Counted from the stretch's first letter, positions 18,615 through 64,000 are shown. The stretch is DNA of 64,000 nt from Pseudomonadota bacterium (GCA_039026555.1 JBCCMB010000001.1:5631-69630); one strand, 5' to 3'. The notes: a model not told the origin generated them from the sequence alone. Numbers and translations: made by a program.

Positions 18615-18691
18615 GCCGCCTTAGCTCAGTTGGTTAGAGCGCTTGATTGTGGATCAAGAGGTCTCCCGTTCGAACCGGGAAGGCGGTACCA
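18615..18691 (+). tRNA. tRNA-His (anticodon GTG)
   Basis: Hand-folded cloverleaf: acceptor GCCGCCT/AGGCGGT, D arm GCTC..GAGC, anticodon arm CTTGA-TTGTGGA-TCAAG, T arm TCCCG-TTCGAAC-CGGGA, A73 and an encoded CCA. Confidence 0.85.
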
Positions 18692-18721
18692 TCCAAGACG
18701 TTGAAAACGTTTCAAAAATTT

Positions 18722-20005
18722 ATGAACCAAAATCCTGAAATTGACAGTTTTTGGCGATTTGGTTCACAATTTGGTTCATTCTCAGGAGTGGACCCATTGC
18801 CTAAGCTCGCCTTTTCCGACCGCTGGATCGCCAATGTGCGGAGCGCGTCCGGGACGACGGAATACGTAGATGCTGCGTGTCCGAATTTGCGGCTCCGCGT
18901 CGGCGCGAGGACGAAAACATTCTCCGTGATGGTGGGCGACGCCGCCAGCAGACGCAGGTTGCGGCTCGGCAAATATCCGGAAATTTCTCTAGCGGATGCG
19001 CGTAAGCGCGCTGAAACGGCGGACGACAGTCCTTCGGTTAAACGTGTTGTTCAGCGCGAAAGCCGTTTCGGAACGGTCCGCGAGCTTTTCGAGTTTGTCG
19101 TTGACCAGATGGAAGCGGAGGGAAAGAACGCCGGCCCGAACCGCACCTATTTGCTTACGGGGCCGCGCGCAGCCGTCGATGCGTTTGGCGAGAACACGTT
19201 AGCGAGAAATGTAACGGCGGAAGACGTCGCTGATTGGCTTCGCGATATCTATCGCTCCGGCGTGCAGACAATTCATCCGCGATCGTTCGTATCGTCGGCG
19301 TTTAGGCGCGGCATGCTAGCAGACAATGATCCGACGAAAGATATCGGTGACGTGTTATTCGGAATTGAAACGAACCCCGTAACAAATGTCGGCGGGGGAG
19401 GCGCGTCGCGTGCGCGTCATCGGAAACTAAGTTTAGATGAGCTGAGAACGCTGTGGTCAGGCTTGCCGACATACGTATCGGCTCAAACAACTTGCGCCAT
19501 CCGGCTCATAATCAGTCTTGGCGGAGTGCGGATCACTGAAGTTCTTCGAAGCGAGAAGGCATGGTGGATAGATGGCGAACCTGTCTGGCTAAAGATCCCG
19601 GCGACGAAGAATGAAACGGAGCACGCGCTGCCGCTCCCGGAGATGGCCGCAGCGCAGCTGAGCGTCGCAAAATTGCTCGCGCATCCCGAAGCGCCTTTCC
19701 TGTTTCCGCACCGCTTTCGGCAGACCGAGATGCACGTGACGCCAAACACCCTGAGCCAGGCGATCCGTCGTTATTGTGACGAGACGGGAATTGAGCGGTT
19801 CCAGCCTCGGGACCTTCGACGCACGATGAAGTCCCATTTGCTCGACAGCAATGACGATCTGCAAGAGGCGTGGTTGGACATCTGGCACAATCACGGACGC
19901 AACGCGACTGTTGCGCGCAAACACTATGATCGCGCCGAATACAGACGTGTAAAAAAGCGGGTCGCTGACGCGATCGATCGGTTGCTGGAGTCAGTCGTGA
20001 AATAA
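18722..20005 (+). CDS. int: Tyrosine-type site-specific integrase
   Basis: Immediately 3' of tRNA-His. The N-terminus reads LSDRWIANV...LRLRVGARTKTFSV, as in an integrase arm-binding domain. The C-terminus has RDLRRTMKSHL and HNHGRNATVARKHYDR (R..H..R..Y). The start is uncertain, because the listed ORF begins inside the tRNA. Confidence 0.85.
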   Translation: MNQNPEIDSFWRFGSQFGSFSGVDPLPKLAFSDRWIANVRSASGTTEYVDAACPNLRLRVGARTKTFSVMVGDAASRRRLRLGKYPEISLADARKRAETADDSPSVKRVVQRESRFGTVRELFEFVVDQMEAEGKNAGPNRTYLLTGPRAAVDAFGENTLARNVTAEDVADWLRDIYRSGVQTIHPRSFVSSAFRRGMLADNDPTKDIGDVLFGIETNPVTNVGGGGASRARHRKLSLDELRTLWSGLPTYVSAQTTCAIRLIISLGGVRITEVLRSEKAWWIDGEPVWLKIPATKNETEHALPLPEMAAAQLSVAKLLAHPEAPFLFPHRFRQTEMHVTPNTLSQAIRRYCDETGIERFQPRDLRRTMKSHLLDSNDDLQEAWLDIWHNHGRNATVARKHYDRAEYRRVKKRVADAIDRLLESVVK

Positions 20006-20067
20006 CCAACTGCGGCTCGCCGTTTGGTTTGCGCCGAATTCATGCTGCGATCGGCGTTTGAACAATC

Positions 20068-20115
20068 TGTCTCCAAAACCGAGGGTCGGGGGTTCGATTC
20101 CCTCTGCCCCTGCCA
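20068..20115 (+). pseudogene. 3' fragment of a tRNA-Trp gene (anticodon loop to CCA)
   Basis: GTCTCCAAAACCGAGGGTCGGGGGTTCGATTCCCTCTGCCCCTGCCA parallels the 3' half of bacterial tRNA-Trp(CCA): CUCCAAA loop, T arm, acceptor 3' strand, G73 and CCA. No matching 5' acceptor strand or D arm lies upstream. Confidence 0.6.
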
Positions 20116-20617: not shown

Positions 20618-21145
20618 ATGACAGCAACATCCCAATCCGATGCAGCAGAAATTCGCATCTACGTCGCCTGCCTGGCCAGCTACAATAACGCCATGCTTCA
20701 CGGCGCGTGGATCAGTGCAAACCAAGACGAGGCGAACATCCTCGCGGCCATCCGAGCAATGCTCGCCAATTCGCCGATCCCTGACGCAGAGGAATACGCG
20801 ATCCATGATTACGAAGGCTTTGGCCCGCTGAGAATCGGCGAGTATCAGGGTGTCGCCGAAATCGCTGACATCGCCGCATTCATCGCCCAAAAGGGCGATC
20901 TCGCCGCTGAACTTGTCTTTCACTACGGCGATGTCGGGGCCGCACGCGATGCGTTGGAAAACCGATATGCCGGGTCGTACGAAGACCTTGAAGCGTTCGC
21001 GCAGGAATTGACCGAGCAGACAACGCAGATCCCTGAGCCGCTGCAATACTATATCGACTGGCGCGCCATGGCGCGCGATCTCGCAATCAGCGATGCCGAG
21101 ACCTTCGAAATCGCCGGCGAGGTCCATGTGTTTTGGCATCGGTGA
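20618..21145 (+). CDS. ardA: ArdA-like antirestriction protein
   Basis: IRIYVACLASYNNAMLHGAWI followed by an acidic C-terminal half, with AGGAGA upstream of the ATG. This is a typical leading-region gene of ICEs. Confidence 0.65.
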   Translation: MTATSQSDAAEIRIYVACLASYNNAMLHGAWISANQDEANILAAIRAMLANSPIPDAEEYAIHDYEGFGPLRIGEYQGVAEIADIAAFIAQKGDLAAELVFHYGDVGAARDALENRYAGSYEDLEAFAQELTEQTTQIPEPLQYYIDWRAMARDLAISDAETFEIAGEVHVFWHR

Positions 21146-21230: not shown

Positions 21231-22136
21231 TTGAGCGTATCGCTCTGCTTTCGCCGGCGCGGATTTTGCGTGGAGCCCAAGTGTTTGAAGCGCCGTCTTA
21301 AAGGCGCCGCTTCGTTTGGGGTTGGGGCGATAAACGTGATGCTGACGAGATCGCCGTTTCCGGCGATGCCGAACGCGGCTTGGGCCTGGGAGGGTCTTCG
21401 GCGCAACAACACCTACCGATCGGACTGGCGAGCCGCCTGCGAGCGCGCGCCTAAAGCCGAAACTCTGACGACCGGAGCGCGCCTTCTTCGTCAGGACGGC
21501 CCAGCGCCCCATCCGGAAGAATGGGGCCTTCTCTGTTTTGCAGACCCCGACAAATCCGCCGTCGATGCAGATGTCTTTTGGCGGCCCGATCTGCTCGCCG
21601 GAGCCTTGCAGGTCAGCTTGTCGCCCGTTTCGGATGAGGGCTTCGCAGACGAGGGTGAAATCGTGTTGTCCCGCCTGCAGACGCGGCGAACCTTGCTGAT
21701 GGTCGGAGACGATCTTCTTCATATCCGTCTTGCCGGCCGTCGGTTTTGGATTCAGCTTTTCGCAAAAACGCCGCGGCCTTTGAACGAACACACACGCGTG
21801 GGCATTCGTATCGATGGCGCGCGGTACGCCCGGCGTCGCCTTGATACGGCGACACAATTGCTGTCGCTCCATCGCGCGCAGGGCGGCAAGTTGTCGCTCA
21901 TCGGACGCCGACGGAATACCGAGCCGCTTGCAAACGCGCTGACCGCTTTCGACATTTATGCTTCTGGCGGCGGCCTTAGAGACATCGCAATCACGCTCTA
22001 TGGCGAGGATCGCGTTTCGGAAGCCTGGACAGGTCCGCGCAATTACCTCAAAGACCGAGCGCGTCGCGCACGCAACAAAGGCCGGGCCTTTGTAGACGGC
22101 GGATATCGCGACCTTCTTGCGCAACGTGCGCTCTAG
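21231..22136 (+). CDS. DUF6499/DUF2285 domain protein (FseA-like ICE regulator family)
   Basis: AWAWEGLRRNNTYRSDWRAA is the W-E-x-L-R-R-N motif of this family. Size and position in the ICE backbone fit. The start may be internal (about 21339). Confidence 0.6.
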   Translation: MSVSLCFRRRGFCVEPKCLKRRLKGAASFGVGAINVMLTRSPFPAMPNAAWAWEGLRRNNTYRSDWRAACERAPKAETLTTGARLLRQDGPAPHPEEWGLLCFADPDKSAVDADVFWRPDLLAGALQVSLSPVSDEGFADEGEIVLSRLQTRRTLLMVGDDLLHIRLAGRRFWIQLFAKTPRPLNEHTRVGIRIDGARYARRRLDTATQLLSLHRAQGGKLSLIGRRRNTEPLANALTAFDIYASGGGLRDIAITLYGEDRVSEAWTGPRNYLKDRARRARNKGRAFVDGGYRDLLAQRAL

Positions 22137-22275: not shown

Positions 22276-22494
22276 ATGGAGCACTTTCGGAGAAGTCCGT
22301 ATCTCACGTCGGAGGAGGCTGGCGACTATTTGCGCCTTGAGCCGCGAACACTCAAAAACATGCGTTGCTGAGGAGAGGGGCCGCGTTATCGCAAGCATGG
22401 CGGCAAAGTCATCTATCATATCGACGATCTAATCGCGTGGTCGCGCCGCCGAAGTTTCGGAACCGATCCGGGTGCGCCTAGCAATGATGGCTGA
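22276..22494 (+). pseudogene. MerR/AlpA-type HTH (excisionase-like) gene interrupted by an in-frame TGA
   Basis: Reads MEHFRRSPYLTSEEAGDYLRLEPRTLKNMRC-TGA-GEGPRYRKHGGKVIYHIDDLIAWSRRR. The stop at 22369-22371 sits where the family has Arg (CGA), and the frame is unchanged after it. Confidence 0.6.
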
Positions 22495-22936
22495 TCGCGA
22501 GCGTCGGTTCACGATCATTGTCTGCGCCTATCGGAAAAACCGTCTCAACAGACGTCTACTGTTCGGGCGGCCCGCATTCGACATACGTCGCGGCTGGCGA
22601 CGGAAATTCGTTTGTTTCGAGCCCGGCGAGATCTTCGCCTACGAAGCGTGGCGCGCTGATCGTTATGGAACCCAGGATTGGCGGCTTGTCGTCGCCCAGA
22701 CCGTTCACGCCGGACCACTCGCGCGATTGCCCGGTGTTTTCCCCGGCGCCGACCCGCTCTTATACGCCTCGGGCGTGACGCAAGTCCGGACTGCGTTGAA
22801 GGCGCTGGACCAGCTTAGACAAAGCGCAGGGGGATTAACGGCAATAACGCCCGCCTATTGGCGGCATCTCCAAAATCGCCTTCAGACGAAGCAAGAGCCG
22901 CACGACTTCACGAGACTGCAGGCCGCGGCCCGGTGA
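22472..22936 (+). CDS. DUF2840-like ICE backbone protein
   Basis: 154 aa between the HTH gene and the S26 peptidase, as in related alphaproteobacterial ICEs. The call rests on synteny and loose sequence memory only. Confidence 0.5.
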   Translation: MRLAMMADRERRFTIIVCAYRKNRLNRRLLFGRPAFDIRRGWRRKFVCFEPGEIFAYEAWRADRYGTQDWRLVVAQTVHAGPLARLPGVFPGADPLLYASGVTQVRTALKALDQLRQSAGGLTAITPAYWRHLQNRLQTKQEPHDFTRLQAAAR

Positions 22937-23697
22937 AACGGTCAAAGCGTATTCGATATGGTTTCGCGTTCGCTGCGGCGGCCGCGGTCTCCGCGGGCGC
23001 AGTCTTTCAGATCATGGCGCCCCCGGTCCCGCGTGTAATCTACAATGCGAGCGAAAGCGCTCCGCGCGGATGGTATTGGCTTAACCCCTCCGGTGAGATC
23101 GTGCCCGGCGTACGGGTCGCAGCCTTCGCGACGCCGGAGGCTCAGGCGTTGGCCGAAGCGCGCGGCTACCTCCCATCCGGCGCGCCGCTTCTCAAAACTG
23201 TTTGGGCGGTCGGTGGAGATAGGATTTGTATCGAGAACCAAACCGTTCGCGCGCCAAACCATCCCGACATCCACGCCTTAGCGCGGGACGGAGCGGGACG
23301 CGACCTGCCGCAATTGTCCCGATGTTTCGAGCTCGCCCCCAACGAGATCTTCCTTGTCTCAAACGATGTGCAGGCCTCTTTCGACAGCCGATATTTCGGT
23401 CCGGTTCACAGAGATCTCGTTTTGGGAACCGTCCGTTATCTCGGCGGCGCGAGGAAGAAGCAGAACAGCGATGGCGTTTCAGACCAGGGCGGGGCGCGGG
23501 GTTTTGGCGCGGAGGGCAAGATAAAAACGAGGAGGCCTCCTAAGGCCTTATCCCCTTGTCTGCACATCTTTTTTGGGAGGGCTCCGCATAAGGCGGGCAG
23601 GCCCGGTAGATGCGTTGTAAGCCCAACATTCGCAGGCGAAAGTGGGAGGCCTCCCAGCCCGCAAAGTCACCTGATGGTCCGGAACGTCACGCCGTGA
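22933..23697 (+). CDS. traF: S26 family signal peptidase, TraF-like
   Basis: NASESAPRGWYWL (catalytic Ser region) and SNDVQASFDSRYFGPV (S26 box E). GTG 22933 overlaps the upstream TGA. The last ~75 codons look non-homologous and may be a read-through extension. Confidence 0.65.
   Translation: MKRSKRIRYGFAFAAAAAVSAGAVFQIMAPPVPRVIYNASESAPRGWYWLNPSGEIVPGVRVAAFATPEAQALAEARGYLPSGAPLLKTVWAVGGDRICIENQTVRAPNHPDIHALARDGAGRDLPQLSRCFELAPNEIFLVSNDVQASFDSRYFGPVHRDLVLGTVRYLGGARKKQNSDGVSDQGGARGFGAEGKIKTRRPPKALSPCLHIFFGRAPHKAGRPGRCVVSPTFAGESGRPPSPQSHLMVRNVTP
23525..23660. promoter_or_regulatory. Palindrome cluster upstream of the relaxase (candidate oriT region)
   Basis: GGAGGCCTCC (23531-23540) abuts TAAGGCCTTA (23541-23550). 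GGGAGGCCTCCC lies at 23644-23655. All are within ~170 nt upstream of the relaxase start. Confidence 0.3.
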
Positions 23698-25613: not shown

Positions 25614-25953
25614 GCAAGTAGGGGAACGCAGATAAGCCTGGCTCGAGAGGGTATGTGCGGCTATCGCGTCTTTGCGCCGTCGATCTTGTCTGCATGGTTT
25701 ACTTATAGGCGCCTGCGATTTGTTTTAACTACGATGCATTTAGCCGTAACGCTCCAGCTACTATCCAAACCGCGTTGGGGCGGGCTTCAACTATGCGAAG
25801 CCCGCCGCCGTCCCGGCTCGCAGGTCCGGCAAGACGGCGGCGGGGTCTTGACGGCGCGGATCCTACTCCGCGCCCGCTCATCATGCGCGGTCCTGGACGC
25901 ACTCCGGGCGCACCCGGCGGTCCCTTAGGATCGCCGGCTCCGGCCCATTTGTG

Positions 25954-26079
25954 GAGCGTGCTGGCCACACGGAAACCGACATTGTTGTTTCGGTTCGTGG
26001 TGGTGTTCCTGTTGCGGTTCGCCGAGCGAAGGTTCTGCGGATTGTTGTTCCAGGAACCACCGCGGAGAACACGACGCGA
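25954..26079 (-). repeat. DGR template repeat (TR), 126 nt
   Basis: Collinear with the terminal 126 nt of four FGE-domain genes. It is AAY-rich (reads NNNPQNLRSANRNRNTTTNRNNN). By hand alignment, all mismatches to VR1, VR3 and VR4 lie at its adenines. The 3' end (GGCCAGCACGCTCCAC) differs from the VR ends (GGCCAGGACGCTTTRA). Confidence 0.85.
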
Positions 26080-26194
26080 GGGGACCGTGCAGGGATGACG
26101 GCCGACCGCACCGAAGCGCGGGCGTGAAGCAGGCGAAACGCGTTCGAGGCTGCAACCATCATCAATATTGAGATTGATCGGAGTCGCCCGGCAG

Positions 26195-26246
26195 AGCAAA
26201 AAAATCGAACCGGCTTCGCCGGTACAAGACGCGGGCTCTCGCCCGC
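26195..26246 (-). terminator. Post-VR1 module: GNRA-loop hairpin plus rho-independent terminator
   Basis: Coding sense: GCGGGC-GAGA-GCCCGC (26231-26246), then ACCGGCGAAGCCGGT (26209-26223) followed by TCGATTTTTTT. Confidence 0.6.
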
Positions 26247-26263
26247 GCTAAAGGAAAAAGGGG

Positions 26264-28648: not shown

Positions 28649-28702
28649 ACGTCGTCCCCGCCGAACTCTAGAGAACACGCTAGTCCATCCATGAACGCAA
28701 TG

Positions 28703-29773: not shown

Positions 29774-30143
29774 GACGCGCGGACGACGCTTTTAGCCAAC
29801 CTCCGATCAGACGTCCGACCTTGTCAATTTCACGAGCAGCGAATTCATAGCGGCGCGGGTCTAAATGGCGGAGATCATAGGCCAAGCGGAAGAGGTGGCG
29901 CAGTTTCTCCAGGCCGAGATTGGCGGCTTTCAGAGCTGGCGCGCGCTCGCGCGAATAGGTCGCGTCGATCAGGCGTTCCAGCACGTCTAGCGCGGTTCCC
30001 TGAATACGGTCGCCGAGGAGGAATTTCTGGCTGCGTGGAAACTTTTCGACCGCGGGGATCAGCCAGCGTAGGAAGCCGTTCATCGCTTCGAGCGCAGGAC
30101 CGATTTTCCGTTGCCCGGATTCATATTTCAGCGCCCCAAACAT
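29760..30143 (-). CDS. avd: Avd-like accessory variability determinant (four-helix-bundle protein)
   Basis: 127 aa, basic and helical (FPRSQKFLLGDRIQGTALDVLERLIDA...). Its 3' end overlaps the RT start by 14 nt. Confidence 0.75.
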   Translation of the reverse strand: MFGALKYESGQRKIGPALEAMNGFLRWLIPAVEKFPRSQKFLLGDRIQGTALDVLERLIDATYSRERAPALKAANLGLEKLRHLFRLAYDLRHLDPRRYEFAAREIDKVGRLIGGWLKASSARHAQA

Positions 30144-30221
30144 GGCGTTATGAAGCCGCGAGTCGCCGATTGCGTCGAGCCCCTATGCGTCGCGAATGTC
30201 CCCGAACATTGGCGGGGACAC

Positions 30222-30551
30222 TCAGGAGATTTCCATCACATCGCCGTCGCCAGATAGTAAGGCTCTTATCGCATCGGCGTGCAGCCGGAGCGACAGAGCG
30301 ATCTGTTGCGTGGCTGCGTTTCCGAGCTTTACCCAGACCAGCCTGGGCGGCGCGCCGCGGGTCTCTACCAGCGCTCGCATGTGGTCGTCTTTCGACAAGA
30401 GGGACAGACCGTTAGCACGGGCGTAGCTCCAGACTACGACGTCGTCCGCGCGCTCCAATCCGCACGCCGTGACATGACGACAGTCCGGAAACTCCACCTC
30501 AAGTATCCCTCCAAGGCGCCAGGAGAGATTTTCGTCGATCAAGAAGGTCAA
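30222..30551 (-). CDS. DUF5615 family PIN-like putative toxin
   Basis: MTFLIDENLS...VVVWSYARANGLSLLSKDDH. 4-nt overlap with the upstream DUF433 gene. Confidence 0.6.
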   Translation of the reverse strand: MTFLIDENLSWRLGGILEVEFPDCRHVTACGLERADDVVVWSYARANGLSLLSKDDHMRALVETRGAPPRLVWVKLGNAATQQIALSLRLHADAIRALLSGDGDVMEIS

Positions 30552-30772: not shown

Positions 30773-30849
30773 GGTTGATTATCGCCAGACCCTTGCGCCA
30801 GGTCAATGTCGGCGCGATCTAACCTGCTGAATCGATCGGGCCGCCCTTT

Positions 30850-30901: not shown

Positions 30902-30918
30902 TATTAAGGAAAAAGGGC

Positions 30919-47306: not shown

Positions 47307-47314
47307 GGGACACA

Positions 47315-48388: not shown

Positions 48389-48412
48389 ACGGGGTAGGGC
48401 GGGATTTGCGCC

Positions 48413-55135: not shown

Positions 55136-55156
55136 CCCTCTTTTCCTTATGGCTTA

Positions 55157-55206
55157 GCCGCGCAAGCGGCGGGGCTAGAACTCGCGAAGCGGGTCAAGAT
55201 TTTTTT
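55157..55206 (+). terminator. Post-VR4 module: GNRA-loop hairpin plus rho-independent terminator
   Basis: GCCGC-GCAA-GCGGC (55157-55170), then ACTCGC-GAA-GCGGGT (55180-55194) followed by CAAGATTTTTTT. Confidence 0.55.
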
Positions 55207-55249
55207 GGGTGCGTTTTGGCTTCTGGCTCAGTCTGCAATGCCGCCGATT

Positions 55250-55560
55250 GTTTTGAAAAAGTCTGACTGCGACGCCTGCGCTCTCAAGTCGAAATACCGC
55301 TCGGACCTGCCGGTGCGCCGCGTCCTGCGCTCGTTGCACAAAGATGCTCGCGACATCGCCGGACGGAACACGGCGTCTGACGCCTACCTGGTCTCTACGC
55401 GGGAGCGGAATAAAGTGGAGATGCCGTTCGCCCACCTTAAACGCATCCAAAAGTTCGATCGTTTGCGCCTTAGCGGACCAAACGGTGCCAAGGACGAGTT
55501 CTTCCTCGCCGCAACCGCCCAAAACCTCTGAAAACTTGGGAAGCTGTCTATCCGCAGCGT
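55250..55560 (+). pseudogene. C-terminal remnant of an IS5/IS1182-family transposase
   Basis: RERNKVEMPFAHLKRIQKFDRLRLSGPNGAKDEFFLAATAQNL matches the conserved C-terminus of this family. No N-terminal part is present. A TGA sits where the family continues with RKLAK. Confidence 0.65.
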
Positions 55561-55783
55561 CATCCCAGAACCCGCCTGAGGCATGGGGAGCCGATCAGCC
55601 GAAATCAGAGGCGCGGAGAAACCGCCTCGGCAGCCGGTTTTTTCAACACTATCGGCCTGAAGCAGTACTAGTGACAGCTATAGATCATAATCCCGCCATT
55701 CGATGTCTTTCAACGACTGTCCGGTTTCGGCATTTTGAGATGCTCGCGTATAGCGTTTACTGACGGCCATTGGCCCCTCGCGG

Positions 55784-58675: not shown

Positions 58676-59017
58676 CCAATCTCCCCCAAGTCCGAAATGC
58701 ACGCCAGTCCATTGCATTGGGAGACTAAACACCGATAGCAGATATCGTCCACACGGGACGGTCGTGAACGGCGGGAGCGCGCGTGCGGGAGGGCCGCGCT
58801 GTGTCCGCTCCGCGATTAATCACGGCCGGCGCCGAGGCATCGTCTCAGACGCCTGTTCCGTTGTTCGATGTCCCTCAACGTCACCCAAAGGGCTATGACG
58901 CGACTGGACTGGTCTCGAATTACCTGAATTAAAACAATTTTGACCCGCTTCTTGATCTGGCCGGCGCCGCCTCTCACCCGCACGCTTGCGCTCGTTAGAT
59001 TTAAGGAGCGCCTAGGC

Positions 59018-61036
59018 ATGTCGCCGCAATCCATTCTTGTCGGTCAGATCATCCTCGTCTTTGCGACGATCATCGCCGGCGTATGGTTTGCGACCCAATG
59101 GACGGCGGGACAATTCGCTTACGACGCTCGCCTGGGCCCGGCATGGTTTACCGCCGGCGAAACGCCGATCTACTACCCCTGGCGCTTCTTTGAATGGTGG
59201 TACGCGTTCGACGCCTACGCGCCGGACGTCTTTTCCAAAGGCGGCTACATCGCCGCCGGGAGCGGATTTCTCGGAGCGTTCGTCGCGGCCATCGGATCCG
59301 TTTGGCGCGGTCGACAAGCCAAGCGTCTCACTACTTATGGCTCGTCGCGATGGGCGACGGCGCGCGACATCGCGTCAGCCGGCCTCTTTAAGCCCGCCGG
59401 CGTCTTTCTCGGCCGCTTGAGAGACGCCTATCTCCGCCATGACGGGCCGGAACACGTGATGGCGTTTGCGCCGACGCGTTCCGGGAAGGGCGTCGGCTTG
59501 GTCGTTCCAACGCTTTTGAGCTGGCGCGAGAGCGCCGTCATCCACGACATCAAAGGCGAAAATTGGACGCTGACGGCCGGCTGGCGCGCGCGTTTCTCCC
59601 ATTGCCTGTTTTTCAATCCGACAGATCCAAGCAGCGCCAGATACAATCCGCTTCTGGAGGTTCGGAAAGGCCTGAACGAAGTCCGTGACGTCCAGAATAT
59701 CGCCGACATATTGGTCGATCCCGAAGGCGCCCTGGAGCAGTGCAACCATTGGGAAAAGACAAGTCATTCGCTGCTCGTCGGCGCAATCCTGCACATTCTC
59801 TATGCGGAAGACGAAAAAACACTCGCGCGCGTGGCGTCTTTCTTGTCCGACCCGTCGCGCAGTTTCGAACAGACGCTTTGGGTGATGATGAACACCAATC
59901 ACCTTGGCGACGAGCGCGCCGCCGAAGTTCATCCGGTCGTTGCGCAGGCCGCACGCGAACTCCTCAATAAATCTGAAAATGAACGCTCCGGGGTCCTGTC
60001 GACCGCCATGAGCTTTTTGGGACTTTATCGCGATCCGACGGTCGCGGCGGCCACATCCGCTAGCGATTGGCGGATCGAGGACCTGGTCGGTGGTGAGAAA
60101 CCGTTGTCTCTTTATCTTGTTGTGCCGCCGTCGGATATTTCGCGGACAAAACCGTTGGTACGGCTAATCCTCAATCAGATCGGGCGCCGTCTGACGGAGA
60201 CGCTCGACGACGGTGTCGACGGTCCGCGCCGCCGAGTTCTGCTAATGCTAGACGAGTTTCCGGCACTAGGGCGGCTCGATTTCTTTGAAAGCGCGCTCGC
60301 CTTCATGGCGGGATACGGCTTGCGCGCCTTTCTGATCGCGCAATCGCTTAATCAGATCGAAAAGGCCTATGGGCCGAACAACTCGATCCTGGACAATTGT
60401 CATGTCCGGGTCGCGTTCGCCACAAATGACGAGCGCACGGCCAAACGCATATCCGACGCGCTCGGGACGGCAACGCAAATGCGCGCCATGCGCAATTACG
60501 CGGGCCATCGCCTGGCGCCCTGGCTGTCGCATGTCATGGTCTCGCGCCAGGAAACCGCACGCCAGCTATTGACGCCGGGCGAAGTGATGCAATTGCCTGC
60601 CGAAGACGAGCTCGTGCTTGTTTCGGGCGCGCCGCCGATCCGCGCCAAGAAGCTTCGCTATTTCGAAGATCAGAATTTCACGTCGCGCGTCTCGGGGCCG
60701 CCGGTGTTGCAGGACGCAGATGGAGCGATCCCCTGTGCGCCGGCGCCTCGGCCGAATGATTGGGCCGGCGCCGTTTGCGATGTCGACGATGGCCTGGCGT
60801 TCAACGCCGCGCCGGTCGCCGACGACGCGGAGGAGGGCGGCAAGGAGCTCAAGCCCGAACTTCAAGTCGAACCGCGCACGCACGAGAGCGAAGACGACGC
60901 GCCGACGCCGGACATTGAAAGCGACGACCCAGAAACAGCCGCAAAGCGCGCCGCCGATCTCGCGAAAGCCGACACGATCCGCCGCGCCTATGGCGTCGAG
61001 CGCGCCGCGCCCGACCGCGACCTATTGGATTTTTGA
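59018..61036 (+). CDS. traG: Type IV secretion coupling protein TraG/VirD4
   Basis: ATG 59018 behind AAGGAG. Two N-terminal TM helices, APTRSGKGVGLVVP (Walker A), VLLMLDEFPALG (Walker B) and an acidic C-terminal tail. Confidence 0.9.
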   Translation: MSPQSILVGQIILVFATIIAGVWFATQWTAGQFAYDARLGPAWFTAGETPIYYPWRFFEWWYAFDAYAPDVFSKGGYIAAGSGFLGAFVAAIGSVWRGRQAKRLTTYGSSRWATARDIASAGLFKPAGVFLGRLRDAYLRHDGPEHVMAFAPTRSGKGVGLVVPTLLSWRESAVIHDIKGENWTLTAGWRARFSHCLFFNPTDPSSARYNPLLEVRKGLNEVRDVQNIADILVDPEGALEQCNHWEKTSHSLLVGAILHILYAEDEKTLARVASFLSDPSRSFEQTLWVMMNTNHLGDERAAEVHPVVAQAARELLNKSENERSGVLSTAMSFLGLYRDPTVAAATSASDWRIEDLVGGEKPLSLYLVVPPSDISRTKPLVRLILNQIGRRLTETLDDGVDGPRRRVLLMLDEFPALGRLDFFESALAFMAGYGLRAFLIAQSLNQIEKAYGPNNSILDNCHVRVAFATNDERTAKRISDALGTATQMRAMRNYAGHRLAPWLSHVMVSRQETARQLLTPGEVMQLPAEDELVLVSGAPPIRAKKLRYFEDQNFTSRVSGPPVLQDADGAIPCAPAPRPNDWAGAVCDVDDGLAFNAAPVADDAEEGGKELKPELQVEPRTHESEDDAPTPDIESDDPETAAKRAADLAKADTIRRAYGVERAAPDRDLLDF

Positions 61037-61039: not shown

Positions 61040-61537
61040 ATGCCGTCGACCAACCCCCGCATCCGTCCTTACATTTCGCCCGACAACCATGTTCGGCTTA
61101 AAGCGCTCGCCGAACTGCCCGGCCGCGGCGAAAGTGAGATTGTCGACAAAGCGCTGGCCGCCTTTTTCAGTCATGAACATGACGACAAACGGGACGGCGC
61201 GCTGATCCGGCGCCTCGATCGCATGACACGTCAGATGGAGGGTTTGAAGCGCAACCAGATCATTTACGCCGAGGCGTTCGCGCTCTTCATGCGGTATTTT
61301 CTGACGGTCATTCCGCCTGTGAGCGAGGCGGATAAAGCCGCGGCCCAAGCCCAAGGCGCCGACCGTTACGAAAAATACCTCAAAAGCCTGCGGACCGTCC
61401 TCGCCGACGGGGAACGCATCCTCTTCGATGTTGTCGACGATCTCATCGTCGATGAGAGCGCCTTCTTCACGGCCGAAGAACTCGCCCGGCTCCATGAGCC
61501 GGCGCCGAGCGCGCAGAAGGAGGCGGCCGATGCATAA
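61040..61537 (+). CDS. Ribbon-helix-helix (CopG-like) protein of the Trb operon
   Basis: The position between traG and trbB is typical for this ICE family. The N-terminal PRIRPYISPDNHVRLKALAE fits an RHH beta-strand plus helix. Confidence 0.55.
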   Translation: MPSTNPRIRPYISPDNHVRLKALAELPGRGESEIVDKALAAFFSHEHDDKRDGALIRRLDRMTRQMEGLKRNQIIYAEAFALFMRYFLTVIPPVSEADKAAAQAQGADRYEKYLKSLRTVLADGERILFDVVDDLIVDESAFFTAEELARLHEPAPSAQKEAADA

Positions 61538-62516
61538 TCGCGAGACGACGCTGCGCACGCTCTCCATGCTGAAAACGGCGATGGGGCCGCTCATCGCTAA
61601 TGCGCTCACCGATCCGTCGGTCATTGAGATCATGGTCAATCCCGACGGCCGGCTCTGGATCGAGCGCCACGGCGAAGGCCGAACGCAAGCGTCTAGCGGC
61701 TTGAGCGCCGAACAGGCCGAACGGGTCGTCCGCTTGGTCGCAAGCCATTTGGGACGCGAAGCAAATTCGTCTCAGCCCATTGTCAGTGCGGAATTGCCCG
61801 GCGGCGGAGAACGCTTTGAAGGCGTCTTGCCGCCTGTTTCACAGCGTCCTTGCTTTTCTATTCGCAAGGCCGCCGCGCGGGTGTTCACACTGGACGATTA
61901 TGTGGACGCCGGGATTTTGTCCCGCGCGGGCGCGCTCGCGCTTCGCCAAGCGGTGCAATCCAAGCTCAACATCATGATCGTCGGTGGAACAAGTTCCGGA
62001 AAGACGACGCTCGCCAATGCGCTCTTGCACGAGATCGCCGATCTGGGCGATCGCGTCGTCATCCTGGAGGATACGCGCGAACTGCAATGCGCTGCGCCCG
62101 ACCACGTAGCGCTGCGAACGCAGGCCGGGTCCGTCAGCCTGTCGGATCTTGTCCGGTCAACGCTTCGTTTGCGGCCCGACCGCATCATTATCGGCGAAGT
62201 GCGCGGGCCCGAAGCGCTTGATCTTCTTAAGGCTTGGAACACCGGCCATCCCGGCGGGATTGCGACCATCCACGCCAATTCGGCGCTCGGCGGCCTTCAC
62301 CGTTTGGAACAGCTGATCGGCGAAAAGAGCCTTCGTATCCCCGACGTTCTCATCGCCGAGGCCGTCGATTTGGTCGTCTTCATTTCGGGGCGCAACGCCG
62401 CCCGGAAAGTCGAAACCATCGCCCAATTGAGGGGGCATGACGGTGAGGATTACGTCCTCAGCGATTTTGCGCCCCAAGGCCCCAAGCTCATCCAACTCAA
62501 TGGAGACACCGCATGA
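61530..62516 (+). CDS. trbB: P-type conjugative transfer ATPase TrbB (VirB11 family)
   Basis: ATG 61530 behind GAAGGAGG. IMIVGGTSSGKTTLANAL (Walker A), RVVILEDTREL (Walker B) and RPDRIIIGEVRG..A...L.AWNTGHPG.I.T.HAN. Confidence 0.9.
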   Translation: MHNRETTLRTLSMLKTAMGPLIANALTDPSVIEIMVNPDGRLWIERHGEGRTQASSGLSAEQAERVVRLVASHLGREANSSQPIVSAELPGGGERFEGVLPPVSQRPCFSIRKAAARVFTLDDYVDAGILSRAGALALRQAVQSKLNIMIVGGTSSGKTTLANALLHEIADLGDRVVILEDTRELQCAAPDHVALRTQAGSVSLSDLVRSTLRLRPDRIIIGEVRGPEALDLLKAWNTGHPGGIATIHANSALGGLHRLEQLIGEKSLRIPDVLIAEAVDLVVFISGRNAARKVETIAQLRGHDGEDYVLSDFAPQGPKLIQLNGDTA

Positions 62517-62830
62517 TGAAATCATCTCATGTCGCGCGCGCCGTCGTGCTGGCAGGCATGGCTGCAATGATCGTCGCGCCAGCCTACGCCGCAGGATCCG
62601 GCATGCCCTGGGAAGGGCCGCTCGATCAAATCCTGCAATCGGTCGAAGGGCCGGTCGCCAAGATCATCGGGACGTTGGCGATCATCATAACCGGCCTCAC
62701 GCTGGCGTTCGGCGATAGCGGCGGCGGTTTCCGCAAGCTGATCCAGATCGTGTTGGGCCTGTCGATCGCCTTCACAGCGACCAGCTTCTTTTTATCCTTC
62801 TTCTCCTTCGGCGGTGGCGCGACGCTATGA
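62513..62830 (+). CDS. trbC: TrbC/VirB2 family pilin
   Basis: Signal-like N-terminus ending AYAAG, followed by two hydrophobic helices. 4-nt overlaps on both sides. Confidence 0.75.
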   Translation: MMKSSHVARAVVLAGMAAMIVAPAYAAGSGMPWEGPLDQILQSVEGPVAKIIGTLAIIITGLTLAFGDSGGGFRKLIQIVLGLSIAFTATSFFLSFFSFGGGATL

Positions 62831-63081
62831 CGCCCGAAGGCTTTGTCATCCCCGTCCACCGGGCGCTCACCGAACCGATTCTGCTCGGCGGCGCGCCAAG
62901 GAACGCCGCCATCTTAAATGGAACAATCGCGGCGGCTTTAGGGTTAGGACTCCAGCTTTGGGCGGTTGGCGTTGTCTACTGGATTATCGCCCATGGCGCG
63001 TGCGTCTTTATGACCAAGCGCGATCCGCAATTCTTGGACGTTCTGATCCGACATGTCCGGCACAAGGCGTATCTATCATGA
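62827..63081 (+). CDS. trbD: TrbD/VirB3 family protein
   Basis: PVHRALTEPILLGGAPR and a hydrophobic hairpin. Located between trbC and trbE. Confidence 0.7.
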   Translation: MTPEGFVIPVHRALTEPILLGGAPRNAAILNGTIAAALGLGLQLWAVGVVYWIIAHGACVFMTKRDPQFLDVLIRHVRHKAYLS

Positions 63082-64000
63082 TGCGCCTCGCTGAATATCA
63101 AAAGCGGCCGACGCGGCTCGCCGACTATCTGCCATGGGCGGCCTTGGTCGCGCCGGGCGTCGTGCTCAACAAGGATGGAAGCTTTCAGCGGACGGCGGCC
63201 TATCGCGGACCGGATCTCGAAAGTTCGACGCGCGACGAACTCGTCTCGCTTTGCGCGCGCGTCAATAACGTGCTGCGCCGCTTCGGTTCGGGATGGGCGC
63301 TCTTTTTCGAGGCGGCGCGTCATCCGGCGCCTGATTACCCTCACAGCGCTTGGCGCGAACCCGTCGCTTGGCTGATCGATGAAGAAAGGCGCGGCGTGTT
63401 CGAAGACGCCGACGCGCTGTTCGAGAGCGCCTATTATCTCACCTTCTCCTATCTGCCGCCGGCCGATGCGGTCCACACGCTCGAAGACATGCTCTTGGAA
63501 CGCGCCGAGGATGGAGAGCATCCCGCGGGCGCTGACCAACTCGCAGTCTTCCTCGAAACGACGGATCGAAGCCTGGACTTGCTGGCGAATCTTCTGCCGA
63601 GCGCGCGGTTTTTGGACGACGACGAAACGCTAACCTATCTGCAAAGCTGCGTGTCGCCGAAACCCCATATCGTGCGCGCCCCCGAATTTCCCGCATATCT
63701 CGACGCCGTTCTGGGCGGCGCTGATCTTGTCGGCGGATTGGAGCCCATATTGGGCGGGTCGAATTTGCGCGTCCTTTCCATCCAAGGCTTTCCGAATGGG
63801 ACCGAACCGGGGCTGCTCGACGAGCTCAACAGCCTTGGGTTTTCTTATCGCTGGTGCACGCGGTTCCTGCCGATGGATAAGGCGGAAGCAGTCAGAACGC
63901 TGACGCGCTATCGCCGGCAATGGTTCGCCAAGCGTAAATCCGTCCTCGCCGTCTTGAAAGAAGCGATGACGCAGGAGGGGACTGCGCTCGTCGATGCGGA
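63078..64000 (+). CDS. trbE: TrbE/VirB4 conjugal transfer ATPase, 3' end truncated by the window edge
   Basis: ATG 63078 overlaps the trbD stop. My translation (MMRLAEYQKRPTRLADYLPWAALVAPGVVLNKDGSFQRTAAYRGPDLES...FSYRWCTRF) matches the TrbE N-terminal region. The ORF is open to the end of the window, so it is absent from the track. Confidence 0.85.
   Translation, partial: MMRLAEYQKRPTRLADYLPWAALVAPGVVLNKDGSFQRTAAYRGPDLESSTRDELVSLCARVNNVLRRFGSGWALFFEAARHPAPDYPHSAWREPVAWLIDEERRGVFEDADALFESAYYLTFSYLPPADAVHTLEDMLLERAEDGEHPAGADQLAVFLETTDRSLDLLANLLPSARFLDDDETLTYLQSCVSPKPHIVRAPEFPAYLDAVLGGADLVGGLEPILGGSNLRVLSIQGFPNGTEPGLLDELNSLGFSYRWCTRFLPMDKAEAVRTLTRYRRQWFAKRKSVLAVLKEAMTQEGTALVDA

What the first reader, a model, noticed from the sequence alone, without database searches (positions are those of the whole stretch)
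18615..64000. The DGR/TIR/MoxR island is cargo of a tRNA-His-integrated conjugative element
tRNA-His and the integrase mark one end. The backbone genes are ArdA, DUF2285, HTH, DUF2840, S26 TraF and relaxase, then TraG, CopG and TrbBCDE. They flank the cargo precisely: convergent gene ends at 25.6 kb, and the TIR-propeller gene ends 340 nt before traG. The whole sensor/effector/DGR system can therefore move horizontally as a unit. An ICE benefits from carrying defence or kin-discrimination cargo. Envelope-exposed variable lectins could also bear on mating-pair or recipient recognition. The right end of the ICE is outside the window.
Basis: partly seen in the sequence, partly recalled or inferred. 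Interest (0 to 1): 0.6.

Follow-up and report, generated by a model that had tools for sequence, protein, structure and literature searches.

The report
Conjugative element carrying a hypermutating defence island
A 53-kb integrative conjugative element sits in a tRNA-His gene and carries a 33-kb island of self-diversifying immune-type genes in its usual cargo slot. Both kinds of system are known, its excision gene has a premature stop, and one target of its mutator lies outside the element.

Summary
The central claim holds. The predicted right end exists. A perfect 50-bp copy of the tRNA-His 3' end lies 7.7 kb past the window end, so the element is 53,072 bp. The missing transfer genes (rest of TrbE, then TrbJ, L, F, G, I) lie before that repeat, and rmlBACD host genes follow it. 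Both ends carry the same triple TTTGGTTCAT motif. The closest integrase relatives (53-58% identity) also sit just after tRNA-His.

The backbone is of the Tn4371/ICEMlSymR7A type. The 33.3-kb island (one template repeat, four variable repeats) fills the relaxase-traG gap. In 15 related elements that gap is 42-160 bp in six and 1-10 kb in nine. The filled gaps hold CBASS, AbiE, HipBA, RES and similar modules.

Three caveats:
- The RdfS-type excisionase gene has an in-frame TGA at codon 32, so present mobility is doubtful.
- A fifth cognate variable repeat lies on another contig among housekeeping genes, so the system is not wholly on the element.
- None of 52 related retroelement loci has this backbone within 10 kb, so the "mating recognition" idea has no support.

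This is a new member of known kinds and of moderate interest.

The parts
18615..18691 (+). tRNA-His(GTG). Its last 50 nt (18642-18691) are the attL copy of the att core.
   Evidence: ARAGORN; repeat extension
18723..18782 (.). attL arm with three copies of the TTTGGTTCA(T/C) motif (18723 on the minus strand, 18761 and 18773 on the plus strand). Candidate arm-type integrase-binding sites.
   Evidence: The same triple layout occurs at the attR arm and downstream of tRNA-His in three homologous integrase loci. Background is 0.35 per kb. Function is inferred.
18797..20005 (+). P4-type tyrosine integrase (Arm-DNA-bind_3 plus Phage_integrase), apparently intact
   Evidence: Pfam. The motifs R..RDLRRT..HNHG..KHY are conserved in the family. 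The closest homologues (53-58% identity) all lie about 100 nt downstream of tRNA-His.
20068..20115 (+). Orphan 3' half of a tRNA-Trp gene, probably a relic of an earlier att site or an integration-module swap
   Evidence: 94% identical over 52 nt to the genome's own tRNA-Trp on C53. There is no second copy in C1.
20618..21145 (+). ArdA anti-restriction protein (backbone)
   Evidence: Pfam E=2e-39; colinear in related ICEs
21231..22136 (+). FseA-like DUF2285 regulator (Trans_reg_dom plus RovC_DNA-bd)
   Evidence: Pfam; PDB 6xz5 RovC E=4e-9; role taken from PMC10359603
22276..22494 (+). RdfS-type excisionase (HTH_17) gene with an in-frame TGA at 22369-22371 (codon 32). A pseudogene as assembled.
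   Evidence: Three-frame translation. Relatives have an intact 80-81-aa gene with W-R where this one has C-stop. HTH_17 spans the stop. PDB 8dgl RdfS E=4e-14.
22472..22936 (+). DUF2840 backbone protein
   Evidence: Pfam E=3e-35
22858..23697 (+). TraF S26 pilin-processing peptidase
   Evidence: Pfam; TIGR02771
23694..25613 (+). RlxS-type relaxase (MobP; DUF3363)
   Evidence: Pfam E=3e-115; NF041267 relax_RlxS, 624 bits. The closest of 5.8 billion protein clusters is 54% identical.
25614..59017 (.). Cargo region of about 33.4 kb in the relaxase-traG variable slot. It holds the DGR core, four DGR targets, the TIR-iSTAND/AAA+ set, the TPR-trypsin-PG-binding genes, a LuxR solo, PhyH, a DUF433/DUF5615 TA pair, an IS fragment and TIR-WD40.
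   Evidence: Pfam. The same slot is 42-160 bp in 6 related ICEs and 1-10 kb in 9.
25945..26079 (-). DGR template repeat (TR)
   Evidence: Alignment and mismatch counts. It is the only TR in the genome.
26264..28678 (-). DGR target 1: TIR-TM-PG_binding-FGE, with VR1 at 26258-26392
   Evidence: Pfam; VR1 has 15 of 16 differences at TR adenines; TM helix at residues 185-203
28703..30143 (-). DGR reverse transcriptase (28703-29773) and Avd (29760-30143)
   Evidence: Pfam RVT_1 and bAvd. It is the only RT homologue in the genome.
30222..30772 (-). DUF433/DUF5615 toxin-antitoxin-like pair
   Evidence: Pfam
30919..33858 (-). DGR target 2: TIR-nSTAND1-TM-FGE, with VR2 at 30913-31047
   Evidence: Pfam; VR2 has 16 of 23 differences at TR adenines; TM helix at residues 651-669
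44340..45704 (+). DGR target 3: TM-anchored FGE protein, with VR3 at 45576-45710
   Evidence: Pfam; 18 of 19 differences at TR adenines
45966..48388 (+). TIR-iSTAND (45966-47306) and a MoxR-like AAA+ ATPase (47315-48388)
   Evidence: Pfam PF19995, TIR_2 and AAA_5
48413..55135 (+). DGR target 4: 2240-aa WD40, multi-TM, caspase and FGE protein, with VR4 at 55007-55141
   Evidence: Pfam; 14 of 15 differences at TR adenines; 8 hydrophobic segments; no vWA domain detected
55205..55531 (+). C-terminal fragment of an IS5/IS1182-type DDE transposase
   Evidence: Pfam DDE_Tnp_1_6 E=6e-8
55784..58732 (-). TIR-WD40 propeller protein, transcribed divergently from traG
   Evidence: Pfam
59018..61036 (+). 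TraG type IV coupling protein
   Evidence: Pfam E=5e-104; 66-77% identical in related ICEs; probable ATG start
61040..61537 (+). Conserved backbone gene between traG and trbB, at the position of msi031.
   Evidence: No family match; 59-70% identical and colinear in relatives
61428..64000 (+). In-window part of the mating-pair-formation operon: trbB (61428-62516), trbC (62513-62830), trbD (62827-63081) and the start of trbE (63081 onward). The element continues beyond the window. Coordinates beyond 64000 are window-equivalent (contig C1 coordinate minus 5630):
- trbE to 65513
- trbJ 65498-66214
- trbL 66214-67545
- trbF 67460-68239
- trbG 68068-69237
- trbI 69234-70433
- AlpA-family HTH 70437-70688 (+)
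- ParE/ParD 70743-71359 (-)
- attR arm with three TTTGGTTCAT motifs 71549-71590
- attR core 71714-71763 (C1 77344-77393), a perfect 50-bp copy of the tRNA-His 3' end
- rmlBACD host genes follow.
   Evidence: Pfam and NCBIfam for the Trb proteins, AlpA, ParDE and the rml genes; att repeat; arm motifs. AlpA and ParDE are not shared with the G033 or G009 ICEs.

Best explanation
Window position 18642 to window-equivalent 71763 (C1 24272-77393) is one integrative conjugative element of 53,072 bp.

Shown here:
- A tRNA-His-specific P4-type integrase recombined a 50-bp core into the 3' end of tRNA-His. This rebuilt the tRNA at attL and left a 50-bp copy at attR.
- The backbone is of the Tn4371/ICEMlSymR7A type. 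Its order is FseA-like DUF2285 regulator, rdfS, DUF2840, traF, rlxS, a variable region, traG, an msi031-like gene and trbBCDEJLFGI. An AlpA-like HTH and ParDE lie at the right end.
- The 33-kb DGR/TIR/STAND/AAA+ island occupies the family's canonical variable region between rlxS and traG.

Inferred:
- In relatives that slot repeatedly holds defence and addiction modules. The island therefore most likely serves the element as defence or conflict cargo that benefits the host and the ICE.
- When the ICE was transfer-proficient the island would have travelled with it: excision by Int plus RdfS, nicking by RlxS, and export through TraG and the Trb pilus system. None of these steps was observed.

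Two limits:
1. The rdfS homologue has a nonsense codon at codon 32. [quoted passage not shown] The element may therefore be recently locked in place, unless the AlpA-like protein substitutes or the stop is an assembly or minority variant.
2. The only RT and TR in the genome are on the ICE, yet a fifth cognate target lies in the chromosome. The system is therefore not fully self-contained on the element.
For: att sites:
- The 3' 14-30-mers of tRNA-His occur exactly twice in the 2.97-Mb assembly. The repeat extends to 50 of 50 identical bases.
- No tRNA gene lies at the second site.

Completeness:
- The rest of TrbE and TrbJ, L, F, G, I lie between the window end and attR. AlpA and ParDE follow them. 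rmlB, A, C, D and ABC-transporter genes lie beyond attR.

Arm motifs:
- Triple TTTGGTTCAT motifs lie on both ICE ends, and also in the L129, L131 and L133 integrase loci.

Integrase clade:
- P0127, P0131 and P0135 (53-58% identity) all lie about 100 nt after tRNA-His, with unrelated cargo.

Family:
- The relaxase hits NF041267 RlxS.
- The rdfS product matches PDB 8dgl RdfS.
- The backbone is colinear in G033, G009, L069, L071 and L072, at 44-82% protein identity.
- Backbone and variable-region definitions come from PMC8627217, PMC11963761, PMC10359603 and PMC2789088.

Cargo slot (relaxase-traG gap):
- 42-160 bp in six related ICEs.
- 1.1-10.2 kb in nine others, holding AbiEi/AbiEii, HipBA, two CBASS systems, RES, ABC-3C parts, a multiubiquitin/E1-like set and a UvrD-nuclease fusion.
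- 33.3 kb here.

DGR:
- One TR and four VRs lie on the ICE, with adenine-biased differences.
Against: - No direct evidence of excision or transfer. A metagenome scan with the 50-nt core found only intact tRNA-His genes of other organisms, with no attB or attP.
- No empty-site comparator. The genus holds only this genome. The right flank is not syntenic in other genera.
- rdfS carries an in-frame TGA.
- The DUF736 and msi021/DUF2274-like backbone genes, present in relatives, are absent here.
- The closest relaxase anywhere is only 54% identical, so there is no sign of recent spread of this element.
- The composition of the ICE and cargo is not distinct from the host.
- Related DGR loci are not ICE-linked.
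- A fifth VR lies outside the ICE.
Confidence: 0.88

Rival explanations
1. The region is an ICE-derived genomic island that can no longer excise or transfer. The DGR island is now an ordinary vertically inherited chromosomal locus, and 'moves as a unit' is history rather than present biology.
For: - rdfS has a nonsense codon at codon 32, inside the HTH_17 domain.
- In ICEMlSymR7A, deleting rdfS abolishes excision and conjugation (PMC11963761).
- DUF736 and msi021-like genes are missing.
- No near-identical copy of the element is found in any collection.
Against: - Every other backbone ORF is open and full length.
- The att repeat is 50 of 50 identical, and arm motifs are intact on both ends.
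- The frame and conservation downstream of the TGA are preserved, which suggests a very recent change, an assembly error or a minority variant.
- An AlpA-family HTH at the right end could act as an alternative directionality factor (this is inference).
Confidence: 0.4
2. The 33 kb is not one functional 'system' acquired as a unit. It is a mosaic that built up in the hotspot by several insertions. The DGR merely links some of the genes through shared VRs.
For: - A transposase fragment lies between target 4 and the TIR-WD40 gene.
- Unrelated modules sit between the DGR targets: the DUF433/DUF5615 TA pair, an XRE HTH, PhyH and a LuxR solo.
- Relatives carry sub-sets. L017 and L018 have RT, Avd and TIR-(STAND)-FGE only. 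L036 has iSTAND, AAA+, a giant FGE protein, Avd and RT in a compact block.
- A fifth target lies off the element.
Against: - All four on-ICE targets share one TR and near-identical IMH, spacer and hairpin elements.
- No repeats mark internal boundaries at the cargo edges.
- Composition is uniform.
Confidence: 0.5
3. The DGR-diversified, membrane-anchored lectin-fold domains serve conjugation itself, in recipient or mating-pair recognition, rather than defence.
For: - All four targets have a TM segment N-terminal to the FGE domain, so some variable domains may face the periplasm.
- The genes are carried on a conjugative element.
Against: - 0 of 52 related DGR loci have conjugation genes within 10 kb.
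- Six related ICEs have nothing in the slot, and the others carry CBASS, Abi or TA modules.
- The partner domains (TIR, STAND, caspase, iSTAND/AAA+) are those of the described conflict systems (PMC7159879, PMC10907252).
Confidence: 0.03
4. The association is an assembly artefact: a metagenome-assembled contig wrongly joins an ICE to a DGR island.
For: The genome is a 217-contig draft. Repeated VR and FGE sequences could mislead an assembler.
Against: - The cargo is flanked on both sides by colinear ICE backbone, and the ICE on both sides by host genes with matching att repeats.
- The VR copies are 81-88% identical over only about 125 nt.
- The contig is continuous over 106 kb.
Confidence: 0.03

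Closest known systems
ICEMlSymR7A-type / Tn4371-type ICEs of proteobacteria (rdfS-traF-rlxS ... traG-trbBCDEJLFGI)
   Same: - Same gene order and homologous proteins: an RdfS homologue (PDB 8dgl, E=4e-14), an RlxS-family relaxase, TraF, a DUF2840 gene between rdfS and traF, an FseA-like DUF2285 regulator, TraG, an msi031-position gene and the Trb operon.
- The variable cargo region lies between the relaxase and traG, as described for Tn4371-like ICEs (PMC2789088).
- The integrase is P4-type and targets the 3' end of a tRNA gene, as IntS does.
   Different: - It integrates at tRNA-His. Tn4371 uses the 8-bp TTTTTCAT site, and no tRNA-His-integrated member of this family came up in the papers read here.
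- Proteins are only 44-82% identical to the nearest relatives found.
- rdfS is interrupted by a stop codon.
- No DUF736, msi021/DUF2274-like or msi107 gene was found.
- An AlpA-like HTH and ParDE lie at the right end.
- No parA, parB or repA maintenance block was seen.
- The cargo is a DGR conflict island rather than symbiosis, catabolic or metal-resistance genes.
DGR-diversified STAND/TIR and MoxR 'ternary' conflict systems (Kaur et al. 2020, PMC7159879; Dore et al. 2024, PMC10907252)
   Same: - C-type-lectin/FGS variable domains lie at the C-termini of TIR, nSTAND1 and caspase proteins.
- A TIR-iSTAND gene and an AAA+ gene lie next to a giant FGS protein.
- Trypsin-like and PG-binding accessory genes are present.
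- Several targets share one TR.
- Transposase remnants lie in the locus.
- Some variable domains are predicted to lie beyond a TM segment.
   Different: - The system is carried inside a conjugative element. Dore et al. name phages, plasmids and transposons as DGR vectors.
- No vWA domain was detected in the giant protein by Pfam.
- The host appears to be a Hyphomonadaceae- or Caulobacterales-like alphaproteobacterium.
- One target lies away from the element that encodes the RT and TR.
Legionella pneumophila ICEs that carry DGRs (ICE-beta-ox / Trb-1 region; PMC4010831 citing Arambula et al. 2013)
   Same: A DGR located on a Trb-type integrative conjugative element.
   Different: The Legionella DGR diversifies a surface lipoprotein. 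It does not diversify a set of TIR, STAND and caspase conflict proteins. The ICE family and the position on the element also differ.
Defence hotspots of SXT/R391 ICEs (LeGault et al., bioRxiv 10.1101/2020.12.16.423150)
   Same: A fixed intergenic slot in a conserved ICE backbone is filled by different anti-phage systems in different members.
   Different: - The ICE family is different (MPF-T/Trb here versus the SXT type).
- The slot is rlxS-traG.
- The contents here were inferred from domain matches and were not tested against phage.

Membership tests
Integrative conjugative element (generic) | Site-specific recombinase next to one end | tested here: met
   P4-type tyrosine integrase 106 nt after tRNA-His. 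The catalytic-region motifs are conserved with relatives.
Integrative conjugative element (generic) | Direct att repeats bounding the element | tested here: met
   A perfect 50-bp repeat. These are the only two copies in the assembly, 53,072 bp apart.
Integrative conjugative element (generic) | Relaxase, type IV coupling protein and a full mating-pair-formation set | tested here: met
   RlxS-type relaxase, TraG and TrbB, C, D, E, J, L, F, G, I (VirB11, 2, 3, 4, 5, 6, 8, 9, 10 equivalents), plus the TraF peptidase.
Integrative conjugative element (generic) | Excision to a circular form and conjugative transfer | not testable with these tools
The metagenome scan for attB or attP was negative.
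ICEMlSymR7A/Tn4371-type ICE family | rdfS as first gene of the rdfS-(DUF2840)-traF-rlxS block, intact | tested here: inconclusive
   The gene is present at the right place and is homologous to RdfS. It is interrupted by TGA at codon 32.
ICEMlSymR7A/Tn4371-type ICE family | RlxS-family relaxase and the traG-msi031-trbBCDEJLFGI cluster in conserved order | tested here: met
   NF041267 at 624 bits, which is below the 850-bit 'exception' cut-off, so this is a family-level match and not an equivalog. Colinear with five related ICEs.
ICEMlSymR7A/Tn4371-type ICE family | DUF2285 (FseA-type) regulator upstream of rdfS | tested here: met
   Pfam PF10074 plus PF20109 in one 301-aa frame; PDB RovC match.
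ICEMlSymR7A/Tn4371-type ICE family | DUF736 and msi021-like backbone genes | tested here: not met
   tblastn with DUF736 from L071 and L072 found nothing in the genome. AlpA replaces the DUF2274-like gene after trbI.
Tn4371 family sensu stricto | Integration at the 8-bp TTTTTCAT attB site, and a parA/parB/repA block | tested here: not met
   Integration is at tRNA-His with a 50-bp core. No such maintenance genes were seen between int and ArdA. The definition is from PMC2789088.
Diversity-generating retroelement | RT plus Avd, and TR/VR pairs whose differences fall at TR adenines | tested here: met
   RVT_1 and bAvd. The share of differences at adenines is 15/16, 16/23, 18/19 and 14/15 for the on-ICE VRs, and 18/22 for VR5.
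Diversity-generating retroelement | IMH-type VR end and a downstream hairpin at the targets | tested here: met
   GTCGG(T/C)TTCCGTGTGGCCAGGACGCT is followed by a T-rich spacer. A GCGGGCGAGAGCCCGC-type hairpin follows at VR1, 2, 3 and 5, and a GCCGC-GCAA-GCGGC hairpin follows at VR4. The TR has C in place of G at the IMH position.
Diversity-generating retroelement | Ongoing mutagenic retrohoming | not testable with these tools
iSTAND ternary conflict system (Kaur et al. 2020) | iSTAND protein with an N-terminal effector domain, next to a MoxR-type AAA+ ATPase | tested here: met
   TIR_2 plus PF19995 iSTAND. The neighbouring gene hits AAA_5 and AAA.
iSTAND ternary conflict system (Kaur et al. 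2020) | vWA-domain third component | tested here: not met
   No vWA domain was detected. It is absent from the 25 best Pfam matches shown for the 2240-aa protein (30 matched), and no family matched residues 1-262 or 650-1629 at E<=0.001. A divergent vWA domain cannot be excluded without a structure.

The most novel reading that the evidence does not exclude
The ICE supplies a trans-acting mutator to the host. Its single RT/Avd/TR set diversifies four receptors on the element and also a chromosomal TIR-TM-PG_binding-FGE paralogue on contig C5. Gain or loss of the ICE would then switch hypervariation of a resident gene on or off. More broadly, the rlxS-traG junction of this alphaproteobacterial ICE family may be a dedicated immune-cargo hotspot that can carry a whole DGR-driven sensor repertoire between hosts.
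Probability: 0.3. Interest if true: 0.6.

Novelty: new member of a known kind. Interest (0 to 1): 0.38.

Why it matters
DGR-diversified TIR/STAND/AAA+ 'antigen-sensor' systems have been described mainly as chromosomal loci. They are thought to spread by phages, plasmids and transposons. Here a large multi-target example sits in the canonical cargo slot of a structurally complete conjugative element with both ends defined. That gives a concrete vehicle for moving such a repertoire.

The same slot in related ICEs holds CBASS, Abi, TA and ubiquitin-like modules. This points to a defence hotspot in a widespread ICE family that has mostly been studied for symbiosis and catabolic cargo.

The premature stop in rdfS and the off-element fifth target are testable. 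They bear on how such islands become fixed in, and entangled with, a host genome. None of this changes the known mechanisms of ICEs or DGRs.

Tried and rejected
2. A scan of JGI metagenome contigs with the exact 50-nt att core gave 11 contigs. All were intact tRNA-His genes of other organisms with different flanks, and none was attB or attP.
3. Empty-site comparison:
   - The M48-tRNA-His linkage is conserved in four other genera, but the rml right flank is not adjacent there.
   - The genus contains only this genome.
4. Recent spread: the exact relaxase is not on record elsewhere, and the nearest homologue is 54% identical.
5. Composition: GC content and tetranucleotide distance of the cargo (0.109) and backbone (0.13-0.15) are not clearly outside the genome background for 20-kb pieces (95th percentile 0.14). 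This is uninformative.
6. Repeats at the cargo edges: no shared direct or inverted 10-14-mers between 25.6 kb and 55.1-59.0 kb.
7. The 'CopG' identity of 61040-61537: no Pfam, NCBIfam or PDB match.
8. PADLOC on the cargo proteins gave only weak TIR or AAA domain-level hits and no named system.
9. Integrase relatives within the family-level genome set (34-39% identity) lie next to tRNA-Arg or tRNA-Val, not tRNA-His. Only the closer homologues from the large protein collection share the tRNA-His site.

Full report
**Observation.** ARAGORN finds one tRNA in the window, tRNA-His(GTG), at 18615-18691.
- A P4-type tyrosine integrase (18797-20005).
- ArdA, a DUF2285/RovC_DNA-bd regulator, DUF2840, an S26/TraF peptidase and a DUF3363 relaxase. 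The relaxase matches NCBIfam RlxS at 624 bits.
- After the cargo: TraG, TrbB, TrbC, TrbD and the start of TrbE.

The cargo genes are also as described. A single template repeat (25945-26079, minus strand) matches four variable repeats, at 26258-26392, 30913-31047, 45576-45710 and 55007-55141. Nearly all differences fall at TR adenines: 15/16, 16/23, 18/19 and 14/15.

Three details need correcting:
- The 'HTH' is a broken excisionase gene (see below).
- 'CopG' has no family support, although it is a conserved backbone gene.
- The TIR-propeller gene is divergent from traG, so its 5' end faces traG.

**The right end.** The window is C1:5631-69630 of a 217-contig, 2.97-Mb assembly.
- The last 14-30 nt of tRNA-His occur exactly twice in the whole assembly, both on the plus strand of C1. 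The identity extends to 50 of 50 bases, at C1 24272-24321 and 77344-77393.
- The second copy is not a tRNA gene.
- The element is therefore 53,072 bp, and its right end lies 7.7 kb beyond the window.
- Between the window end and attR lie the rest of TrbE, TrbJ, TrbL, TrbF (VirB8), TrbG (CagX), TrbI, an AlpA-family HTH and a ParE/ParD pair.
- Beyond attR come rmlB, A, C, D and ABC-transporter genes.

**Independent support for the att sites.**
- Inside the element, about 30-90 nt from the attL core and about 130-165 nt from the attR core, the same triple motif occurs: ATGAACCAAA followed by two TTTGGTTCA(T/C) copies 12 bp apart. The hexamer frequency in C1 is 0.35 per kb.
- The closest integrase homologues in a 5.8-billion-cluster protein collection are 53-61% identical. 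The three on long contigs all lie about 100 nt downstream of a tRNA-His(GTG) in the same orientation. They carry the same double GGTTCAT motif in the spacer but entirely different downstream genes: czc efflux, ParB/Toprim, or an IS with a decarboxylase.
- This is a tRNA-His-specific integrase clade. I infer that the motifs are arm-type binding sites.
- More distant relatives (34-39% identity) lie beside tRNA-Arg or tRNA-Val.
- The integrase's RDLRRT, HNHG and KHY motifs are shared by the family, so it looks intact.

**Which ICE family.** The nearest relaxases (53-54% identity) lie in contigs with the same order:
- ArdA, DUF736, DUF2285, HTH_17, DUF2840, S26 and the relaxase.
- A short variable stretch.
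- TraG, a family-less gene of about 165 aa, then TrbB, C, D, E, J, L.

Two ICEs in related genomes (G033, G009) are colinear, with protein identities of 43-81%. This is the rdfS-traF-rlxS / traG-trb architecture of ICEMlSymR7A and Tn4371 (PMC11963761, PMC8627217, PMC10359603). For Tn4371-like ICEs the variable accessory region is described as lying between the relaxase and traR/traG, 'suggestive of an insertion into a primordial transfer module' (PMC2789088).

This element is not a Tn4371 family member in the strict sense. It uses a tRNA-His site rather than TTTTTCAT, and it lacks the parA/parB/repA block. It also lacks DUF736 and the DUF2274-like gene that follows trbI in G033 and G009.

**The cargo slot.** I measured the relaxase-to-traG distance in 15 related ICEs.
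- It is 42-160 bp in six (G037, two in G020, G007, G009-C6, G012).
- It is 1.1-10.2 kb in nine.

The filled slots hold:
- AbiEi/AbiEii (L071).
- HipBA with ankyrin and glyoxalase genes (L069).
- Two genes without a family match (L072), and one 261-aa ORF (G009-C3).
- A CBASS set of cyclase, E2 and phospholipase, with PADLOC E-values of 2e-144, 1e-47 and 2e-118 (G033).
- Patatin with an E2-E1-JAB fusion, plus a RES toxin (G029).
- A Y-family polymerase with DUF2326/CTD10 ABC-3C parts (G036).
- An M78-UvrD-PD(D/E)XK fusion with multiubiquitin, an E1-like protein and DUF6527 (G023).
- The 1.6-kb slot in G018 was fetched but not annotated.

Here the gap is 33.3 kb, the largest seen. The island therefore sits in a true hotspot whose usual contents are defence or addiction modules. 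It parallels the SXT ICE hotspots (bioRxiv 10.1101/2020.12.16.423150).

**What the cargo is.** The combination is:
- TIR-(nSTAND1)-TM-FGE proteins.
- TIR-iSTAND next to an AAA+ ATPase and a giant WD40-caspase-FGE protein.
- Trypsin-like and PG-binding genes.
- One DGR.

This matches the DGR-diversified conflict systems of Kaur et al. 2020 and Dore et al. 2024. I could not detect the vWA domain expected of the ternary systems. Each target has a hydrophobic segment before the FGE domain, so a periplasmic location for some variable domains is plausible. The island also holds a DUF433/DUF5615 pair, an XRE HTH, PhyH, a LuxR solo and a fragment of an IS5/IS1182-type transposase. This suggests that it was built up in steps.

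**Is the cargo ICE-specific?** No.
- A scan of one genome per species returned 52 loci with RT homologues of 51-79% identity. None has a homologue of any backbone gene within the fetched flanks, which reach up to 10 kb on each side. In this element the RT is only 3 kb from the relaxase.
- The closest locus (L017, RT 79%) has a HINT toxin fragment, an rve transposase, AbiEi, TIR-nSTAND-FGE, Avd, RT and TIR-FGE, followed by a lipoate-protein ligase gene.
- L036 has a compact iSTAND, AAA+, giant FGE, Avd and RT block.

I read it differently. It shows that the module moves between contexts and was captured by this ICE. It also removes support for a conjugation-specific role of the lectins.

**Two limits on 'moves as a unit'.**

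First, the rdfS gene is broken.
- The gene between DUF2285 and DUF2840 (22276-22494) encodes an HTH_17 protein that matches the solved RdfS structure (8dgl, E=4e-14). Codon 32 is TGA, where close relatives have Arg, and the preceding Trp has become Cys.
- The downstream frame is preserved. This is therefore a recent inactivation, an assembly error or a minority variant.
- The AlpA-like HTH at the right end is not part of the conserved backbone. It might act with the P4-type integrase, but that is conjecture.

Second, one target lies off the element.
- A BLAST of the TR against the whole assembly finds a fifth VR on contig C5 (50414-50538). 18 of its 22 differences are at TR adenines. It has the same IMH-like end, T-rich spacer and GCGGGCGAGAGCCCGC hairpin.
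- It ends a 684-aa TIR-TM-PG_binding-FGE paralogue of target 1, 67-71% identical over the C-terminal 440 residues.
- Its neighbours are an acyl-CoA dehydrogenase (6es9, E=4e-228), a DsbA-like protein and an HtpX-like protease.
- The genome has only one DGR RT and one TR, both on the ICE.

So either the ICE-borne DGR acts in trans on a chromosomal gene, or VR5 is a stranded target.

**History of the element.** A 47-nt 3' half of a tRNA-Trp gene lies 62 nt after the integrase stop. It is 94% identical, over 52 nt, to the host's own tRNA-Trp on C53. In the circular form, the attR arm, the core, the attL arm and int form one contiguous cassette of roughly 1.6 kb that abuts this fragment. This fits replacement of an older tRNA-Trp integration module, and such swaps are reported for this ICE family (PMC8627217). 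This is inference.

**What could not be shown.** Excision, transfer, DGR activity and an empty site were not demonstrated.
- The metagenome scan with the att core found only other organisms' tRNA-His genes.
- Right-flank synteny is absent in other genera, and the genus has a single genome.
- The nearest relaxase anywhere is 54% identical.
- Composition is uninformative.

**Verdict.** The finding is real and its main interpretation is right. This is a structurally complete Tn4371/ICEMlSymR7A-type ICE at tRNA-His, with a DGR-driven conflict island in the family's cargo hotspot. DGRs on ICEs are known from Legionella (PMC4010831), and ICE defence hotspots and DGR conflict systems are also known. 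It is therefore a new member of known kinds. The broken rdfS, the off-element fifth target and the family-wide defence hotspot are the points worth following up.

Noticed in passing
G000 contig C5:48488-50542 (L139 12489-14543); VR5 at C5:50414-50538: A fifth DGR target lies outside the ICE. It is a 684-aa TIR-TM-PG_binding-FGE paralogue of target 1. 18 of its 22 VR differences are at TR adenines, and it has the same IMH and hairpin. Its neighbours are acyl-CoA dehydrogenase, DsbA-like and HtpX-like genes. The only RT and TR in the genome are on the ICE.
   Followed up: partly
window 22276-22494 (TGA at 22369-22371): The RdfS-type excisionase gene has an in-frame stop at codon 32. The rest of the frame is conserved (PDB 8dgl, E=4e-14). 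This may lock the ICE in place.
   Followed up: yes
window 20068-20115: An orphan 3' half of a tRNA-Trp gene lies 62 nt after the integrase stop. It is 94% identical to the host tRNA-Trp on C53. It is probably a relic of an earlier att site or integration module.
   Followed up: partly
window 18723-18782, and window-equivalent 71549-71590 (C1 77179-77220): The same triple TTTGGTTCA(T/C) motif lies on both arms of the element and downstream of tRNA-His in three homologous integrase loci (L129, L131, L133). These are candidate arm-type integrase sites.
   Followed up: partly
Relaxase-traG slots of related ICEs: G033:C29 ~152.6-157.8 kb; G029:C1 1374.0-1380.4 kb; G036:C1 463.6-472.9 kb; G023:C1 716.0-726.2 kb; L069, L071, L072: The slot is a recurrent hotspot for conflict modules: two CBASS systems, AbiE, HipBA, RES, ABC-3C parts, a multiubiquitin/E1-like set and a UvrD-nuclease fusion.
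   Followed up: partly
window 55205-55531: A C-terminal fragment of an IS5/IS1182-type DDE transposase lies between DGR target 4 and the TIR-WD40 gene. This suggests the cargo was built up in steps.
   Followed up: partly
window 36450-37178 (-): A LuxR-family autoinducer-binding regulator with no luxI nearby sits in the middle of the cargo. Quorum sensing controls transfer in ICEMlSymR7A through TraR and FseA. This protein scores better with the PA1136 family (E=1e-21) than with TraR (E=7e-11), so a link to ICE control is open.
   Followed up: no
window 30222-30772 (-): A DUF433/DUF5615 toxin-antitoxin-like pair lies between Avd and target 2, inside the DGR core.
   Followed up: no
window-equivalent 70437-70688 (L001 8068-8319): An AlpA-family HTH directly follows trbI, where the related ICEs G033 and G009 have a DUF2274-like gene followed by DUF736. 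It could be an alternative directionality factor for the P4-type integrase.
   Followed up: no
VR2 (30913-31047) and VR5 (C5): Both share the same non-adenine difference from the TR (position 21, T to C), and each has a few other non-A changes. This is consistent with older or partial homing, or with a later change in the TR.
   Followed up: no
G012:C2:1704342-1705937, and many other relatives: TIR...FGE and FGE-domain proteins are common in genomes of this bacterial family, including genomes where no close DGR RT was found.
   Followed up: no
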